From a virus (lineage: Duplodnaviria; Caudoviricetes): DNA of 64,000 nucleotides. The stretch is taken from IMG/VR virus record IMGVR_UViG_3300037010_001838; one strand, written 5' to 3'. Of this stretch, positions 2,084 to 56,509 are shown one piece after another. Below the pieces are notes generated by a model. It was given only the letters and a program-made list of their open reading frames with translations. It made no database searches and was not told the origin of the DNA. The position numbers and the translations under genes were made by a program. Within the stretch, counting starts at the first letter, position 1, and each line of letters starts with the position of its first letter.

Positions 2084-2545
2084 ATGAGTCCATTGGTAAG
2101 GGTTCATCAGAGAACCGCCAAGATGCTCACCTTTACACAAACTCCAACCTCGCTAACGACAAAGTTAGGTATTATTCAACAACACCCCCAGTGGTATACA
2201 AACGTCGAGGTTGTTCCCGTTGAAGCAATTTGTCTTGACGACAAATTTCATTTAATGAATGATGAACTAATGATGATTAATCACAAATGTATGAAAGAAG
2301 AGTGGCACGATCGCTGTTGTTGTAACTGTTTCTGGCGATGGACAGATTATGGTCACCCCTGGACAAACAAAACTAGCGTTACTACTCCAAGAGGTTATGT
2401 TTGTGCTAGTCCTGAGCTTTGGCGTGATGGTGAAATGAGTGTGTTGAGTGAATGGGGTGAACACGGACTTTGTGAAGTTTGGACTGGAAAAGATGAAGTA
2501 GTGTTAACGATTGATTATAAACAAAGAAACAAAAATGAATCTTGA
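2084..2545 (+). CDS. hypothetical Cys-rich protein
   Basis: 153-aa ORF; true start may be further downstream. Confidence 0.45.
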   Translation: MSPLVRVHQRTAKMLTFTQTPTSLTTKLGIIQQHPQWYTNVEVVPVEAICLDDKFHLMNDELMMINHKCMKEEWHDRCCCNCFWRWTDYGHPWTNKTSVTTPRGYVCASPELWRDGEMSVLSEWGEHGLCEVWTGKDEVVLTIDYKQRNKNES

Positions 2546-3017
2546 AATCGAACGAAAGTTTCTAGTAAAAAACGATAATTGGAAGAACAATATCGTTCGA
2601 ACTTTTCATATTAAACAAGCATACATTGCTCCGAATACTCGAGTTCGGATAAAGACTGAATCTGTTCCCCAGGTCCTGTCTTGGTACAGAATGACTATTA
2701 AAAAAGACACTGGTGATATGTTGAGGCGGGAGGAATTCGAATTTGATATCGAACCAACGTTAGCCAAGGAGTTATTTTCAGCCTTTGAACATAATTCCAT
2801 AGAGAAGGTTCGCTACATTGTTAAAAATAATTATCACTTGTGGGAAGTTGATGTGTTTAGGGGAAAACACGAGGGGCTTATCGTAGCCGAAATCGAGTTT
2901 AATCAAAACAAATCTCAGCTAGAAATTGATAGTTTAATTTTACCAGATTGGGTTGGTGAAGAAGTTACGAACGACCACCAATACACTAACAGTTGTATTG
3001 CTTTTAATAGGGTCTAA
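2535..3017 (+). CDS. CYTH-domain protein (triphosphatase/adenylate cyclase-like)
   Basis: N-terminal EIERKFLV, plus WEVDVF and IVAEIE motifs. Confidence 0.9.
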   Translation: MNLEIERKFLVKNDNWKNNIVRTFHIKQAYIAPNTRVRIKTESVPQVLSWYRMTIKKDTGDMLRREEFEFDIEPTLAKELFSAFEHNSIEKVRYIVKNNYHLWEVDVFRGKHEGLIVAEIEFNQNKSQLEIDSLILPDWVGEEVTNDHQYTNSCIAFNRV

Positions 3018-3364: not shown

Positions 3365-3438
3365 GCTCAATTGGCTTAATGGTAAAGCAGGTGCTTCTAA
3401 AACACTTGACCGTCGGTTCGATTCCGACATTGGGCACC
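3365..3438 (+). tRNA. amber suppressor tRNA (CUA anticodon)
   Basis: acceptor GCTCAAT/ATTGGGC, D stem GCTT/AAGC, loop TT-CTA-AA (3395-3401) with a C31-A39 mismatch, T arm GTCGG-TTCGATT-CCGAC. Confidence 0.75.
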
Positions 3439-3612
3439 GAGAAGTTAGAAAAGGGTGTGGTTCAATTCCACAGGAAGGGATCCGAAGCTCTATAAAGGAC
3501 CGAGCGTTTCTAACGATGATTAAAAGTGTAGTAAATTGGAGATAACATCAATGATCAGGACTGGTACGCCATTCTTTAGTGAAAAACAGACCGTCTACAC
3601 TTTCGTATTAAT

Positions 3613-3688
3613 TGCGGGGTAGAGGAGGTAGTTCATCACCGGTCTCATAAGCCGAAATAGGTCAGTGCAAGTCTGACCCCCGCTACCA
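3613..3688 (+). tRNA. tRNA-Met(CAU), initiator-like
   Basis: loop CT-CAT-AA, unpaired 1:72, CCA end. Confidence 0.85.
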
Positions 3689-3950
3689 ATTTCTTACTAT
3701 AGAAAGATGAATGGTATATGACGACCCGTCTTGGTACGAAAAAGTGTGAAATGAAGGACCGTTTTTATTTCACGTGTGAACGTGAGTTTACATCGGTTTT
3801 ATCAAAGATTAGAGAATACCATAATGTAGTTGTGGAAATTGGGCGACTGGTTACGTAACAGACGATGAAGAAATAGAATGTGATTTTGAAGTTAGTACAA
3901 AATTAGTTGTTGACAATACGAAATAAAGTAGTAAAATAGACTTTGAGTTG

Positions 3951-4087
3951 TTTTTGTTGTGTTGTGCTCTCGCAAGGAGCTCACCCAGGTTGGGTTAGTT
4001 TGGATTGTTCTTCGAAATCAACCAGGAGAAGGCAAGGTGGTTACTCCAAGTGTAAGAGAACATGAGGAGTAAACAATACAACAAAAA
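3951..4087 (+). ncRNA. candidate small structured RNA
   Basis: terminal pairing TTTTTGTTGTGTTG/CAATACAACAAAAA, GCAA-capped hairpin, sigma70-like promoter upstream; shares AACATGAGGAGT with the large RNA. Confidence 0.5.
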
Positions 4088-4139
4088 TAATTTAAATATC
4101 TGTTGACTTAATGAAGAAGTTAGTATAAAGTATACAGAT

Positions 4140-5190
4140 AGTATTAAGAAAGTCACTCTTTTAATTAGTTCTGTGAATTCAGAACGTTTCATCAGAAACA
4201 ATTTAAAAGATAAAGAATTACGCGCTTGTGCAAAGTAACCAACAGCGATGTTGTGAAAGCGGTAGGTCCTACAACTACCGCGCCCTGTAAGGGGTACAAA
4301 CAAGCAAGCCTGACCTACTCCGAAAGGAGCTGATTATCGCCAACGGTAGTCATATGAGGGAAGTTAGGGGTGTGGAAAGAACGAATGTTTACAAGCCTGC
4401 TCTGCAGGGAACTTGGGCATTTGGAGAGTAACGGGTTGTGCCGACCTCACGCCTACACAAACTAGCCATCTCAAAAGGTAAAGGGTAGTACAGTGGTCCG
4501 AACCCGCAAGTAAGGGCTGTTGTGCAAGTTGAGGGGGTTTTGGTACCTGTAATAGGGTGTCACGATTCCTGAAAACTGGTTGAGTAGTCGGCAGATGAAA
4601 AACATGAGGAGTGTGGTATTTTTATACTCAAAAGGTATGAAATCCACTGGAAACGCACTTCTTGGTAGGTTTAACAATGTTAGGGTTAACAGCCCATATA
4701 AATTTGGATTATATTACATAAAACGCAAAGACGTTTCCAGTGTAAAGTGAAAATGGCTTAATCCTTCAGCCGCAAGGTAATGAAGGCGTCCAAAACTCGC
4801 AAGGTCGAGGATGTTGAAAGAAAGTCGCACGCAGAGAGTTAGCGCTCTTGTACAGCTCGCAAGGTTGGCGGTAGACAGATAATCGAGTAGCTTTACATGT
4901 TGGTGGAAAAGCAACCACTTAAAAAATGCAGTCATGTTGATAGACATAGTTGTGCGAAAGCTGATTATGTGGATAAGAGAAGAACTCTAGCTGTAGCAGG
5001 TGATGAGATAATGTCTCGAAGGTATCAATAGTATAGGTTTAATCTCAACCTTATACAAAGTAAATGCCTCGATTGGGGTGTCTGCTTTAAACAATCTGTG
5101 TAGAACCTCCCTTGTAAAAGGGGTTAGAGAGTTGGTAATGTAGATTGTTTAAAGCAGACTTATGAACTGCCACTTTGAAAAAAGAGAGTA
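4140..5190 (+). ncRNA. large ornate ncRNA candidate (GOLLD/ROOL-like class)
   Basis: ~1 kb without a credible ORF, raised GC, many GNRA-capped hairpins, perfect 18-bp (5080-5097/5142-5159) and 11-bp (4645-4655/4732-4742) helices, next to tRNAs; boundaries approximate. Confidence 0.65.
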
Positions 5191-5307
5191 CACGCTCTTG
5201 ATAAATCGTGTCAATGGGCCAGACCATTGGGAAAAATTTTCCGATAACTGCGAATAATATCGTTGATTTTTGATTTTAATCACCGTAAAATGTCTTTATT
5301 GAAGTTT

Positions 5308-5407
5308 GAGACACATATAGCAAACCAAAATTCTGCGCTTCACGGCGCACATTGGAGTGTGATCCACTTAAAACATCGGCTGATTGGACCTTCCAGTTGG
5401 TGTCTCG
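5308..5407 (+). ncRNA. stem-ACAGCAA family RNA copy E0
   Basis: GAGACAC-ATATAGCAA...GTGTCTC-G terminal helix with internal hairpins. Confidence 0.55.
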
Positions 5408-5417
5408 TAAAAAGTTT

Positions 5418-5574
5418 AAGACGCACACAGCAATCTTTTGACTTTGAGAAGTTGTGGAGAATCTGGGAAGTGGAGGAGCTTGCTCTTGTGAAGCTTCCCA
5501 GTGGAGACTACAACAAAAACGTGCTACCGTGTTTCAATACGGTAGGTGTTGACCGAGCTTCGGTTGGCGTCTTG
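5418..5574 (+). ncRNA. stem-ACAGCAA family RNA copy E1
   Basis: AAGACGC-ACACAGCAA...GCGTCTT-G terminal helix with several internal hairpins. Confidence 0.6.
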
Positions 5575-5597
5575 TTAAATTAACGAAAAGGATCAAA

Positions 5598-5819
5598 ATG
5601 ACTACCAAAAAAGCAAAGAAAGATCAAGCAGTTGCAGTGATTATTGGAAAACCCAACCGGCATTTTAAGTTACCAGGATCAATTAAGCGTGTGATGGTTT
5701 CAATTGAAGATAAGCATGCACGTGGAGCATATAAACGTGCTATGATTTCAGCTGAATTGACATACCAAGCAAACAAAAAGAAGCGTGTTGAACGAACTGA
5801 TACTAGTAAAGATGAATAA
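5598..5819 (+). CDS. small basic hypothetical protein
   Basis: 73 aa, AAAGGA RBS, Lys/Arg-rich. Confidence 0.7.
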   Translation: MTTKKAKKDQAVAVIIGKPNRHFKLPGSIKRVMVSIEDKHARGAYKRAMISAELTYQANKKKRVERTDTSKDE

Positions 5820-6043
5820 TGGATTCTCAACCAGTTATTAATTTTAACACCGTATTGGTGGAAATTTCAAAACTGGAACTTAATCCAGGTGATGTTTTAG
5901 TCATAAAAGTTCATGACGATTCTCTATTTAAGAAGAGTAACATAATAGAAATTTCGAACGCACTTGACAAAGCGTTGCCTAAAGACGTAAAAGCAGTTAT
6001 AGTTCCATCACAATATGAATTTCAAGTTATAAGAAATCTTTAA
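5819..6043 (+). CDS. hypothetical protein
   Basis: 74-aa ORF overlapping the upstream stop. Confidence 0.6.
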   Translation: MDSQPVINFNTVLVEISKLELNPGDVLVIKVHDDSLFKKSNIIEISNALDKALPKDVKAVIVPSQYEFQVIRNL

Positions 6044-6050
6044 TAGTTTA

Positions 6051-6113
6051 AAGACACTAACAGCAATCGCATAATACATTAGACATTTAATCTAACCAGT
6101 AAAATGTGTCTTG
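6051..6113 (+). ncRNA. stem-ACAGCAA family RNA copy E2
   Basis: AAGACAC-TAACAGCAA...GTGTCTT-G directly before the RBS of the TROVE-like gene. Confidence 0.6.
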
Positions 6114-6129
6114 ATAAAAGGAGAAACAA

Positions 6130-7632
6130 GTGAGCAAAGAATTTGTGGATGCCCTTTCTATTACAACCAATGTAGCGCACACGGAAAATGGTGCTGTTGC
6201 ATTTGATACAACCAAATCAGCTATGTTGGATTTGTTTGCACAAGGGGGTGCACTCCGCAATCGTGCTGATGATGAAATTCTTCGTTTGTTTTCAAAAGCT
6301 TATGCAGAAAATGCATTGTTTGCCACTCGTGCTATGTTCTATTTCAGGGACGCTCGTGGTGGTCAAGGTGAACGCGATACATTTAGAAAGCAATTAAAGT
6401 GGTTGATTAACGTTAACCCTGACGCTGTCCGTAAAAACATTAAACTTATTCCATACTTTGGACGTTGGGATGATTTGTATGTGTTATTTGATACAGAACT
6501 TGAAACAGATGCAATTACACTAATCTTTACACAGATTGCCGAAGACACGGCATCTGAACATCCCTCGTTGCTTGCAAAATGGTTGAAAAGTGAAAACGCT
6601 TCTTCAAAAGAAACGAAACGACTTGCAACAAAAACTCGTATAGGTCTTAAATTAAGTTCCAAAGCATATCGCTTGATGTTGAGCACTCTTCGTAAGAAAA
6701 TTAACATCGTTGAACGGTTGGTGTCTGCCAATCAGTGGGATAGTATTGAATACAGTGCCGTTCCTTCTCAAGCTAACTTGTTATATGGGAAAGCTTTCTT
6801 CACGCATGACGCTGAACGCCGTAAGAAATTCTTGGATTCTTTAAAGACTGGCGAAAAGAAAATCAATGCGAGTGTTCTTTTTCCATATGAAATCGTCCAT
6901 AAAGCACTTACGGTGGGCAGGAACACACCACAACACGAACGCCAACTCATAGATGCGTTGTGGGACGCTCTTCCAAACTATATTGGAGATAAACAAGAAA
7001 ATGCTCTTGCTGTAGTTGATGTGTCTGGTTCTATGGCTGGTCTTCCATTGGAAGTTGCTATTTCGGTTGGAATGTATTTGGCTGAACGTAACACTTGTGA
7101 AGCTTATCATAACAAGTTCATTACTTTTAGCTCTACACCTCAACTACTTAAAATTCAGGGAGCTGACCTTGTTGAAAAAATAGCTAATATGAATAGTTCT
7201 GCATGGGAAATGAATACAGATATTCAAGCTGTGTTCCGTTTGATTCTTACTGTTGCCAAACAAAACAAGTTAGCACAATCTGAATTACCACAGAAGTTGT
7301 ATATCATTTCTGATATGGAATTTGATGCCGCTATAAGCAACGCTAGATATTCTTATAAGAATCAATGTCGGGGTGTGGTTGACGAAAAATTTTTCCAAAC
7401 AATTTCTAAAGAATTTAGTGAGTGTGGATATACAATGCCCAATTTGGTGTTTTGGAATGTTGATGCTCGGAACCAACAGTTTCCAATGAGTATGGATGAG
7501 CGTGGTTTTCAAATGGTTAGTGGATGTAGTCCGTCTATCTTTAAGCACACAATAGGTGGAGAATTTATGTCTGCTTATGATTTGATGCTTGATGTTATTA
7601 ACAGTGAACGTTATCAACTCGTTACAATTTAA
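6130..7632 (+). CDS. TROVE/Ro60-related vWA protein (DUF2828-like)
   Basis: TENGA, RDARGGQGER and vWA MIDAS VVDVSGSM motifs; ISDMEFD; FWNV. Confidence 0.85.
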   Translation: MSKEFVDALSITTNVAHTENGAVAFDTTKSAMLDLFAQGGALRNRADDEILRLFSKAYAENALFATRAMFYFRDARGGQGERDTFRKQLKWLINVNPDAVRKNIKLIPYFGRWDDLYVLFDTELETDAITLIFTQIAEDTASEHPSLLAKWLKSENASSKETKRLATKTRIGLKLSSKAYRLMLSTLRKKINIVERLVSANQWDSIEYSAVPSQANLLYGKAFFTHDAERRKKFLDSLKTGEKKINASVLFPYEIVHKALTVGRNTPQHERQLIDALWDALPNYIGDKQENALAVVDVSGSMAGLPLEVAISVGMYLAERNTCEAYHNKFITFSSTPQLLKIQGADLVEKIANMNSSAWEMNTDIQAVFRLILTVAKQNKLAQSELPQKLYIISDMEFDAAISNARYSYKNQCRGVVDEKFFQTISKEFSECGYTMPNLVFWNVDARNQQFPMSMDERGFQMVSGCSPSIFKHTIGGEFMSAYDLMLDVINSERYQLVTI

Positions 7633-8089: not shown

Positions 8090-8177
8090 GGAAGTATGCC
8101 AGAGCGGCTTATTGGCGCTGCCTTGAAAGCAGATGGTCCGAAAGGGCACGTGGGTTCAAATCCTACTACTTCCGCCA
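8090..8177 (+). tRNA. tRNA-Ser(UGA)
   Basis: loop CT-TGA-AA, long variable arm, G73, CCA. Confidence 0.95.
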
Positions 8178-8383: not shown

Positions 8384-9172
8384 ATGAAATTTCTTATTCA
8401 ACACAATTTAATGGATAAAGAACAACTTCAGTTAACAAAAGCTGCTGTTGAACAATACCCACATGAATTTGTTGGATTAATTCCTTTCTCTCGAGAAATA
8501 ACTTCAACCGAACCATTAACAGGAACCAAATACATTCCTTATGGTTCAACACTATTAACAAACCTTGCTTATGAATTAAAATGGGAAGGTCTCTATTTTG
8601 ATTTAGCTAAATTCAATTACGAAGCTGCTGCATCCAACCGTGACGATATGATGAATGCACAGTTCATTAAACCATTGAACGTGACGATTGAGTTTTTACA
8701 CACGAGACCAGATAACGAACTTTGGTTTATTCGTCCTTCAGAAGATCTGAAACAATTTTCTGGACAAATTATTGAAGCGAAAGAATGTAGAGAATGGCTC
8801 AAAGATGCAATGGAATGTGACATGTCTGGTACTTATAAAATGGAACCGGAAACGATGATTGTTCTTGCTGAACCACAGACGATTCAAGCTGAATGGCGTT
8901 GGTTTGTTGTTGGAGGGGAAATTGTTGACGGTTCCATGTACCGTGCAAATGGACAATTAATTAAAAATCATGAAACGGAAACTGGCGTTATAAAAGAAGC
9001 ACAAAAATTCGCCGATAAATGGGTACCAAGTCCGTGTTGTGTTATGGACACAGCTCTTGTCGATGACAAAATAAAGGTTATAGAATTTAACTGTATTAAC
9101 TCATCAGGTTTTTACAATCATAACGTATCAAAAATATTTTCAGCCTTATATGATTACTCAATCAATCGTTGA
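8384..9172 (+). CDS. ATP-grasp domain protein (DUF4343/R2K-like)
   Basis: FIRPSEDLKQFSG, EWRWFVVGGEIV, VMD, VIEFNCINSSGFY. Confidence 0.8.
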   Translation: MKFLIQHNLMDKEQLQLTKAAVEQYPHEFVGLIPFSREITSTEPLTGTKYIPYGSTLLTNLAYELKWEGLYFDLAKFNYEAAASNRDDMMNAQFIKPLNVTIEFLHTRPDNELWFIRPSEDLKQFSGQIIEAKECREWLKDAMECDMSGTYKMEPETMIVLAEPQTIQAEWRWFVVGGEIVDGSMYRANGQLIKNHETETGVIKEAQKFADKWVPSPCCVMDTALVDDKIKVIEFNCINSSGFYNHNVSKIFSALYDYSINR

Positions 9173-38433: not shown

Positions 38434-39072
38434 ATGAAGTTATTTGAAATTATTGGAGGAGAAGCTCTTCGAAAATCTGATAGTGTTAAAGTTAGAAATG
38501 GTTACACAGACACAGATTCATTAAAACGCCTTGGGGTTGGCCTTCAGGCTGTTGTAGTCGATAGAATAAAGAAGCCTGGAGTGGTAACAAAAGTCTTTGG
38601 TTTTAACACAGAAGAAGATGGGTATCTTCAATTCCTGCGGTTTATTCAAAAACACCAAAATAACCCCTTTTTACCTCGAATTTATAAAATTCGTCTGTAT
38701 CGGAAAGAGTTTGATATATACATCAATAGAACAGATTCTGTTTATGATAATACAGGAGTTGTTGACATGGAAAAATTATTACCATTAAATTCTCCTAAAA
38801 TTAAAGATGCTATTTCTCATCAACTTCAGGCACTCGGAATGAATGAACAGTTTGCCGAAAGTCTTGCAACGAGCCAATTGATTAATTATTATCATGATGC
38901 TGTTGTTAACAAAAAAATTGAGCGCAACGCTCAATTTGAAGAAGTTGTTAATTTCTTACGCACGTATGGTGCTATAGCAGATTTAGACTTACATTCAGGA
39001 AACATTATGGCAAGGTTAACTTCTGTTGGTCCCCAGTTAGTTCTAATTGACCCTATTTGGAAACCTGATTAA
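38434..39072 (+). CDS. protein-kinase-like protein with capsid-targeting-like N-terminus
   Basis: LGVGLQAVV, VVTKV, DLHSGNIM, LVLIDP; MKLFEI start after TAAATA. Confidence 0.75.
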   Translation: MKLFEIIGGEALRKSDSVKVRNGYTDTDSLKRLGVGLQAVVVDRIKKPGVVTKVFGFNTEEDGYLQFLRFIQKHQNNPFLPRIYKIRLYRKEFDIYINRTDSVYDNTGVVDMEKLLPLNSPKIKDAISHQLQALGMNEQFAESLATSQLINYYHDAVVNKKIERNAQFEEVVNFLRTYGAIADLDLHSGNIMARLTSVGPQLVLIDPIWKPD

Positions 39073-56299: not shown

Positions 56300-56509
56300 A
56301 TGAAAGTTTATGTAAAAGAAAATGAAAACATCGATCGCGCCATTCAACGTTTTAAGAGAGTTGTAGATCAATCTGGTTTACTCAAAGAACTTCGAGCGAG
56401 AGAATCTTATGAAAAACCAACAGTTGAACGTAAACGAAAAAAAGCGGCGGCGGTAAGCAGACAACTTCGTGAACTCCAAAAACACCAGTTAATCAAAAAA
56501 TTGTATTGA
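56300..56509 (+). CDS. rpsU: ribosomal protein bS21
   Basis: AIQRFKR...[24 protein letters not shown]. Confidence 0.95.

What the first reader, a model, noticed from the sequence alone, without database searches (positions are those of the whole stretch)
4140..5190. About 1-kb ornate non-coding RNA candidate
This is a GC-enriched stretch with no credible ORF, following a sigma70-like promoter (~4103). It has repeated CGCAAG/CGAAAG tetraloop hairpins and perfect long helices (18 bp 5080-5097/5142-5159; 11 bp 4645-4655/4732-4742). Size and position beside phage tRNAs fit the GOLLD/ROOL class of giant RNAs of unknown function. I cannot tell by eye whether it is a known family or a new one. No group I/II intron or tmRNA hallmarks were seen.
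Basis: partly seen in the sequence, partly recalled or inferred. Interest (0 to 1): 0.7.

Follow-up and report, generated by a model that had tools for sequence, protein, structure and literature searches.

The report
GOLLD giant RNA in jumbo phage

Summary
Window 4222-5062 (+) is a full-length, two-domain GOLLD RNA (Rfam RF02032). The Rfam model, which covers only the conserved 3' domain, matches 4606-5051 end to end at 198.8 bits (cut-off 150; E 1e-54). The 5' half (4222-4605) is homologous end to end with GOLLD RNAs on about 40 IMG/VR phage contigs. On a 32-sequence alignment, 96.7% of pair cells form standard pairs, against 36-43% when partners are slid. 153 of 193 pairs show compensatory double changes.

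The 18-bp helix (5080-5159) lies outside GOLLD. It sits where 18 related loci carry a covarying 17-bp hairpin.

This copy differs in three ways. Its linker has no embedded tRNA, whereas 24 of 32 relatives have one. It appears to have its own sigma70-like promoter. It sits beside a Ro60-like gene instead of a tRNA.

Function is inferred from published cryo-EM of another GOLLD: a self-assembling 14-mer nanocage. Expression could not be tested.

The scan had already flagged this same stretch in an overlapping window (e1-5376524).

Verdict: new member of a known kind; modest interest.

The parts
4103..4131 (+). sigma70-like promoter candidate (TTGACT, 17 nt, TAAAGT), about 90 nt upstream of the conserved RNA
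   Evidence: Consensus scan, 9 of 12 matches. A TTGACT/TATAAT site also precedes the GOLLD of L008, read by eye from alignment A1. No transcript data.
4140..4221 (+). AT-rich leader, not conserved in relatives
   Evidence: Homology to L008/L009/L010 starts at about 4222-4301. The fold is weak, z = -2.3.
4222..4605 (+). GOLLD 5' domain (forms the cage cap in the published structure)
   Evidence: nhmmer finds end-to-end homology with about 40 viral contigs. Helices 2-19 of alignment A2 covary.
4606..5062 (+). GOLLD 3' domain (Rfam match 4606-5051 plus a conserved tail)
   Evidence: RF02032 scores 198.8 bits on model positions 1-416 of 416, untruncated. Helices 20-38 covary.
4664..4731 (+). variable linker (J13/15 of the literature), here without a tRNA
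   Evidence: ARAGORN finds no tRNA and Rfam finds none at E<=1. The fold has z = 0.01, so it is unstructured. The sequence is conserved only with L009 and L008.
4645..4655 (+).
   Evidence: Perfect complement of 4732-4742. Helix 23 of A2: 7 of 7 pairs covary and 100% of cells are paired.
4732..4742 (+). 3' arm of the linker-closing helix (core 4732-4738)
   Evidence: As above. This helix crosses the outer stem 4606-4612/4657-4663 (helix 20, 99% paired), so the two form a pseudoknot.
4834..4849 (+). hairpin with loop UUAGCG; candidate for the published self-kissing loop L21a (GC at 4842-4843)
   Evidence: Helix 32 covaries. The mapping to L21a comes from position arithmetic against PMC12286853 and was not checked by alignment.
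5080..5159 (+). post-GOLLD long hairpin (18 perfect bp; 22 bp in the predicted fold), outside the GOLLD model
   Evidence: MFE -35.4 kcal/mol, z = -5.2. An analogous 17-bp hairpin with covarying outer pairs follows GOLLD in 18 related loci.

Best explanation
Window 4222-5062 (+) is a gene for a GOLLD RNA, the known giant ornate RNA of phages and prophages. It lies in an uncultured phage whose near-twin contig is 179 kb at an estimated 52% completeness.

Shown here:
- family membership of both domains;
- a base-paired architecture maintained by compensatory evolution;
- a linker enclosed by a conserved helix.

Inferred from the cryo-EM structure of another GOLLD (env-38; PMC12286853): the transcript folds into a 5' cap domain and a 3' ring domain. 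Fourteen copies then assemble, without protein, into a closed D7 nanocage with the linker pointing inward.

Inferred from sequence only: it is transcribed from its own sigma70-like promoter at 4103-4131. Its 3' end is set or protected by the long hairpin at 5080-5159.

This lineage keeps the whole shell but carries no tRNA in the linker, so the selected function is most likely that of the shell itself, acting on molecules supplied in trans. It probably belongs to the phage's translation and RNA-maintenance toolkit during lytic growth. The cellular role of GOLLD is not established in the papers read here.
For: - Rfam RF02032: 198.8 bits against a cut-off of 150, full model, not truncated. The twin record G001 gives the same score.
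- An HMM of 4222-5062 matches end to end on about 40 IMG/VR contigs.
- RNAalifold on 32 sequences predicts 186 pairs, 149 of them with double changes.
- The formal count gives 96.7% paired cells against 36-43% for slid partners, 153 of 193 pairs with compensatory changes, and 0 of 500 shuffles reaching any measure.
- The window itself forms 172 of the 193 consensus pairs. Eight of the 21 misses are in the two linker helices (cols 541-575), the tRNA arms of the tRNA-bearing relatives.
- It differs from its nearest relatives by 30-49 compensatory double changes.
- Context: 32 tRNA genes in the window and membership of IMG/VR.
- The cage architecture and the inward-pointing linker come from PMC12286853 and PMC12990946.
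Against: - There is no transcript evidence: no RNA run holds the stretch.
- The promoter match is weak (9 of 12).
- The single-sequence fold is only modestly better than shuffles (z = -1.83).
- Cage assembly is extrapolated from one solved member; I could not align that sequence to this one.
- The role proposed for the 3' hairpin is a guess. It has no U-tract, and the twin phage carries a stem mismatch.
Confidence: 0.9

Rival explanations
1. It is a new class of giant ornate RNA that only resembles GOLLD.
For: By blastn the 5' half matches only some of the first GOLLD loci fetched. The cultured phage XacN1 shares only the 3' domain.
Against: The Rfam match covers the full model above the cut-off. 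A profile search shows the 5' half is homologous across about 40 GOLLD loci. A divergent 5' region is a described GOLLD property (PMC12286853).
Confidence: 0.01
2. It is a decaying, non-functional GOLLD copy that lost its tRNA cargo and its tRNA neighbours.
For: There is no tRNA in the linker and none adjacent, unlike 24 of 32 relatives. 21 of 193 consensus pairs are not formed in the window.
Against: Eight of those 21 pairs are the tRNA's own helices. The window keeps every invariant column of A2. It scores like its relatives (178.9-227 bits). It shows 30-33 compensatory double changes against L009 and L008, which share the tRNA-less linker, indicating continued structural selection.
Confidence: 0.04
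3. The stretch encodes a protein, or a conserved small ORF explains the conservation.
For: ORFs of 44-102 aa overlap it on both strands.
Against: None exceeds 102 aa. The substitutions among relatives are pairwise compensatory, and many indels are not multiples of three. No neighbouring-protein cluster maps here (one search excluded ORFs that overlap GOLLD).
Confidence: 0.01
4. The mature RNA is about 1 kb: leader, GOLLD and the 5080-5159 hairpin form one functional unit.
For: A long hairpin directly follows GOLLD in 18 related loci, and its outer pairs covary. The window's hairpin is highly stable (z = -5.2).
Against: The hairpins of the two clades share no sequence. The window's hairpin starts 17 nt further downstream. 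L009 and L010 have a tRNA there instead. The solved GOLLD construct is 833 nt, residues 421-833 being its 3' region. Whether that construct carries a comparable distal hairpin was not checked.
Confidence: 0.3

Closest known systems
GOLLD RNA (Rfam RF02032; Weinberg et al. 2009 as cited in PMC12286853; cryo-EM of env-38 in PMC12286853)
   Same: Full-model Rfam match, about 840 nt, two domains, a variable linker after the first 3'-domain hairpin, many GNRA-type loops, and a phage genome rich in tRNA genes.
   Different: The linker carries no tRNA. No tRNA lies within 780 nt. It seems to have its own promoter. The downstream neighbour is a Ro60-like gene with small RNAs.
GOLLD loci of about 350-kb uncultured jumbo phages in IMG/VR (for example L014, L017, L031)
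   Same: End-to-end homology of both domains, the same helices, and a long hairpin directly 3' of the RNA.
   Different: Those carry tRNA-Asn or tRNA-Lys in the linker and a tRNA about 100 nt downstream. An RNA-repair-type gene cassette (kinase, phosphoesterase, Rnl1-type ligase) lies 0.4-4 kb downstream.
ROOL RNA (the other phage nanocage RNA)
   Same: Large ornate phage RNA near tRNAs that forms an RNA-only cage with an internal linker (PMC12286853).
   Different: Unrelated sequence and fold. No Rfam match at E<=1 here.
GOLLD of cultured Xanthomonas phage XacN1 (AP018399.1, about 38570-38983; not annotated in the record)
   Same: The 3' domain scores 227.3 bits. It has no tRNA in the linker and tRNAs downstream.
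   Different: The 5' region is not recognisably homologous to the window's. It sits next to a permuted tmRNA.

Membership tests
GOLLD (RF02032) | Covariance-model score at or above Rfam's gathering cut-off (150 bits), over the whole model | tested here: met
   198.8 bits, model positions 1-416 of 416, untruncated, E = 1.3e-54.
GOLLD (RF02032) | A second, less conserved 5' domain upstream, giving a total length above about 800 nt | tested here: met
   841 nt in total. HMM positions 13-835 of 843 match about 40 other GOLLD loci.
GOLLD (RF02032) | Ornate secondary structure maintained by covariation | tested here: met
   153 of 193 pairs show double changes. 96.7% of cells are paired, against about 38% for slid controls.
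GOLLD (RF02032) | Variable linker (J13/15) after the first 3'-domain hairpin, sometimes holding a tRNA | tested here: met
   The linker at 4664-4731 is enclosed by a covarying helix. It holds no tRNA here, while 24 of 32 relatives have one. A tRNA is not a required feature.
GOLLD (RF02032) | Phage or prophage location near tRNA genes | tested here: met
   The near-twin is an IMG/VR viral contig. The window holds 32 tRNAs, the nearest 784 nt away.
GOLLD (RF02032) | Self-complementary GC/CG dinucleotide in kissing loop L21a (bridge B8) | tested here: inconclusive
   The loop UUAGCG at 4839-4844 holds GC. L011 and L004 have UCGA at the same alignment position. The mapping to L21a rests on position arithmetic only.
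GOLLD (RF02032) | Assembly into a protein-free 14-mer cage | not testable with these tools
   Needs mass photometry or cryo-EM of the transcript.
GOLLD (RF02032) | Expression during lytic growth | not testable with these tools
   No RNA run is listed for this DNA.
ROOL, OLE, HEARO, group I/II introns, tmRNA | Rfam covariance-model match | tested here: not met
   No match at E<=1 in 3400-6200 with permissive filters.

The most novel reading that the evidence does not exclude
GOLLD may be one module of a phage toolkit for translation and RNA damage. The gene set just downstream changes between lineages:
- a ribosomal protein S21 gene in 4 loci;
- a kinase/phosphoesterase/Rnl1-ligase repair cassette in 4-9 loci;
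- a Ro60-like gene with partner RNAs here and in L009's phage.

The tRNAs held inside the cage are mostly Asn and Lys, plus Gln, His, Arg and amber suppressors. From my own knowledge, these isotypes overlap the usual targets of anticodon nucleases. On this reading the cage shelters or meters vulnerable tRNAs, and the tRNA-less lineage of this window does so in trans.
Probability: 0.12. Interest if true: 0.75.

Novelty: new member of a known kind. Interest (0 to 1): 0.3.

Why it matters
The physiological role of GOLLD is still unknown, although it is one of only two natural RNA-only nanocages reported in the papers read here. This copy adds no new principle, but it is a natural variant that keeps the whole shell under structural selection without a tRNA in its interior. 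That argues the shell works independently of carrying a tRNA in cis. The comparative by-products may help narrow the function: a covarying hairpin 3' of GOLLD that the Rfam model does not cover, recurrent S21 and RNA-repair neighbours, and an unannotated GOLLD in the cultured phage XacN1. XacN1 also offers an experimental system.

Tried and rejected
- Expression: no RNA holder is listed for window 4100-5300. The six listed runs are all on record as DNA; the four that hold most of the stretch are from microbial mat and sediment. Read laying was not used, because contigs cannot show transcript ends.
- General GOLLD-Ro60 linkage: the Ro60-like protein occurs in only 2 of 24 GOLLD-bearing viral records, and in none of the four that are 98-100% complete. 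The adjacency is therefore lineage-specific.
- Hidden tRNA in the linker: none by ARAGORN or by Rfam at E<=1. Alignment to tRNA-CTA genes is unconvincing.
- More members of the tRNA-less clade: a 20-nt linker motif found only the twin, L008, L009 and copies of L009. Four other hits lie outside any GOLLD in AT-rich sequence and look like chance matches.
- TAG recoding in phages whose GOLLD embeds tRNA-CTA: a crude ORF-length comparison was uninformative.
- The longest perfect Watson-Crick stem as a test for the post-GOLLD hairpin was too blunt, because the stems contain G-U pairs. It was replaced by the alignment fold.
- The XacN1 5' region is not homologous to the window's 5' domain.
- A literature search for GOLLD together with S21 found nothing. 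A bare 'GOLLD' search was swamped by unrelated words.

Full report
**Observation**

- The stretch is richer in G+C (0.41-0.48) than its flanks (0.33-0.38).
- No ORF on either strand exceeds 102 aa.
- A sigma70-like site lies at 4103-4131, but it matches only 9 of 12 consensus positions.
- The two perfect inverted repeats are exactly at the stated coordinates.
- Six CGMAAG loop motifs lie on the + strand between 4321 and 4960. The whole 64-kb window has 42 on both strands.

**Identity**

Rfam's GOLLD model (RF02032) matches 4606-5051 over all 416 model positions at 198.8 bits (cut-off 150; E = 1.3e-54). With permissive filters, no other family reaches E<=1 between 3400 and 6200. That excludes ROOL, OLE, HEARO, introns and tmRNA as far as Rfam can see.

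The Rfam model covers only the conserved 3' domain, so I tested the upstream half separately. Motif scans of IMG/VR returned 43 loci. An HMM built from window 4222-5062 and its nearest relatives matched about 40 of them end to end, at positions 13-835 of 843. Both halves are therefore canonical GOLLD.

The conserved RNA runs from about 4222 to 5062 (841 nt). The published env-38 GOLLD is 833 nt, with its 3' region starting at residue 421 (PMC12286853).

**Structure**

I aligned 32 non-identical sequences (A2).
- RNAalifold predicts 186 pairs, of which 149 show compensatory double changes.
- After adding the outer stem of the first 3'-domain hairpin as a pseudoknot, the count covers 193 pairs in 38 helices.
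- 96.7% of cells form standard pairs, against 36-43% when partners are slid by 1-3 columns.
- 153 pairs have double changes, and no shuffle out of 500 reaches any measure.
- The window forms 172 of the 193 pairs. Eight of the 21 misses are in the two linker helices (cols 541-575), the tRNA arms of the tRNA-bearing relatives.
- It differs from its closest relatives by 30-49 compensatory double changes.

Folding the single sequence gives only z = -1.83. The comparative evidence carries the argument.

The 11-bp helix (4645-4655/4732-4742) is genuine.
- Its 7-bp core (4649-4655/4732-4738) is helix 23 of A2. All seven pairs covary and none breaks in 32 sequences.
- It joins the internal bulge of the first 3'-domain hairpin to the 3' flank of the linker. 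It therefore encloses the linker and crosses the outer stem 4606-4612/4657-4663 (99% paired), forming a pseudoknot.
- I could not map it onto the published stem numbers. Covariation alone cannot tell whether it forms within one chain or between chains.

The 18-bp helix (5080-5159) is not part of GOLLD as modelled.
- Homology to relatives ends at about 5062.
- It folds into a 22-bp stem (MFE -35.4 kcal/mol, z = -5.2).
- It is still not an accident of this genome. In 18 loci of the main clade a hairpin begins within a few bases of the GOLLD 3' end.
- That hairpin has a 17-bp closing stem. The ten inner pairs are nearly invariant (AAACACAUUA with UAGUGUGUUU). Several outer pairs covary, for example AU 9 with UA 8, and CG 8 with UA 8. 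The apical part varies over 40-70 nt.
- The window's hairpin occupies the same place with unrelated sequence.
- I read it as a 3' processing or protection element, perhaps an RNase III site. That is inference only.

**How this copy differs from its relatives**

- ARAGORN finds a tRNA inside the linker of 24 of 32 GOLLDs: Asn-GTT 11, Lys 8, amber CTA 2, and one each of Gln, His and Arg.
- Most loci have another same-strand tRNA 9-300 nt downstream.
- The window, its twin L002, L009 and L008 share a 68-nt linker without a tRNA. It is predicted to be unstructured (z = 0.01).
- A search for further members of this clade found only copies of L009.
- The nearest tRNAs here are the amber suppressor at 3365-3438 and tRNA-Ser at 8090-8177.

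**Mechanism**

The cryo-EM work shows that a GOLLD RNA forms a closed D7 14-mer about 380 A across, without protein (PMC12286853).
- The 5' domains form the caps and the 3' domains form the rings.
- The disordered linker points into the empty interior.

A 2026 review places an embedded tRNA in this linker (J13/15). It proposes 'inhibited storage' of that tRNA (PMC12990946).

By homology I expect this RNA to build the same cage. That step is inferred, not shown. Because this lineage preserves the shell by compensatory evolution but has no tRNA in cis, I conclude that the shell has a function of its own. What it acts on remains open.

**Genomic context**

I clustered the ORFs around 37 GOLLD loci.
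- A ribosomal protein S21 gene lies 24-272 nt downstream in L004, L007, L011 and L008. The window's own S21 gene is at 56300-56509 (73 bits).
- In the main clade a gene cassette lies 0.4-4 kb downstream: an AAA_33 kinase, a metallophosphoesterase, an Rnl1-type RNA ligase and a DSP-like phosphatase. The phosphatase match is below the Pfam cut-off.
- Here, and in L009's phage, a Ro60-like DUF2828/DUF7788 gene follows GOLLD at 1.07 kb and 6.8 kb.
- That gene is absent from 22 of 24 GOLLD-bearing records, so it is not a general partner.

These phages are related, so the counts are not independent. The shared theme of translation and RNA maintenance is a lead, not a finding.

**Source**

- The nearest held record is an IMG/VR contig of 178,796 bp at 52% estimated completeness.
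- Complete relatives that carry GOLLD are 340-364 kb.
- The DNA is found in microbial mat and sediment metagenomes. No RNA run is listed.
- The cultured Xanthomonas phage XacN1 has an unannotated GOLLD at 227.3 bits, which offers a laboratory system.

**Verdict**

This is a real, well-supported GOLLD RNA: a new member of a known family.

Noticed in passing
L014, L017, L018, L021, L031 and 13 more loci, 0-100 nt after GOLLD; window 5080-5159: A long hairpin directly follows GOLLD in 18 related loci. It has a 17-bp stem, with an invariant inner part and covarying outer pairs. The Rfam model does not cover it. The window has an unrelated-sequence analogue at the same place.
   Followed up: partly
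L004, L007, L011, L008 (24-272 nt downstream of GOLLD); window 56300-56509: A ribosomal protein S21 gene sits immediately downstream of GOLLD in four loci. The window's phage also encodes S21 (PF01165, 73 bits), but 51 kb away. No paper in the library mentions both GOLLD RNA and S21.
   Followed up: partly
L014, L017, L024, L031 (0.4-4 kb downstream of GOLLD): A gene cassette follows GOLLD in the main clade: AAA_33 P-loop kinase, calcineurin-like phosphoesterase, Rnl1-type RNA ligase and a DSP-like phosphatase. It resembles the T4 Pnkp/Rnl1 tRNA-repair set.
   Followed up: partly
L011:2644-2718 and L004:3210-3281: Two GOLLD RNAs carry an amber-suppressor tRNA (anticodon CTA) inside the linker. 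Each has a second tRNA-CTA 285-949 nt downstream. In the window the tRNA-CTA (3365-3438) lies 784 nt upstream of GOLLD. A crude test gave no sign of TAG recoding.
   Followed up: partly
window 3947-4092: A strongly folded small RNA candidate (MFE -51.4 kcal/mol, z = -5.6) lies behind an 11-of-12 promoter match at 3910-3937. It shares the 12-mer AACATGAGGAGT (4059-4070) with the GOLLD domain junction (4601-4612). It is present in the twin phage with a 22-nt deletion and in no other GOLLD locus.
   Followed up: partly
window 6130-7632 and 8384-9172: A DUF2828/DUF7788 protein of 500 aa follows GOLLD. An earlier scan note reads it as Ro60-like. It is 46% identical to Bacillus phage proteins. An R2K-clade ATP-grasp protein lies further downstream. 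A weak CYTH match (below the Pfam cut-off) lies at 2511-3017.
   Followed up: partly
L047 (AP018399.1 37160-40369): Cultured Xanthomonas phage XacN1 carries an unannotated GOLLD (227.3 bits). About 950 nt upstream of it is a permuted tmRNA.
   Followed up: partly
window 3690-3875 and 5263-5583: The twin phage L002 lacks most of window 3690-3875. It also has a deletion of about 117 nt inside the 106-aa ORF at 5263-5583. That fits non-coding, repeat-like RNA genes better than a protein.
   Followed up: no
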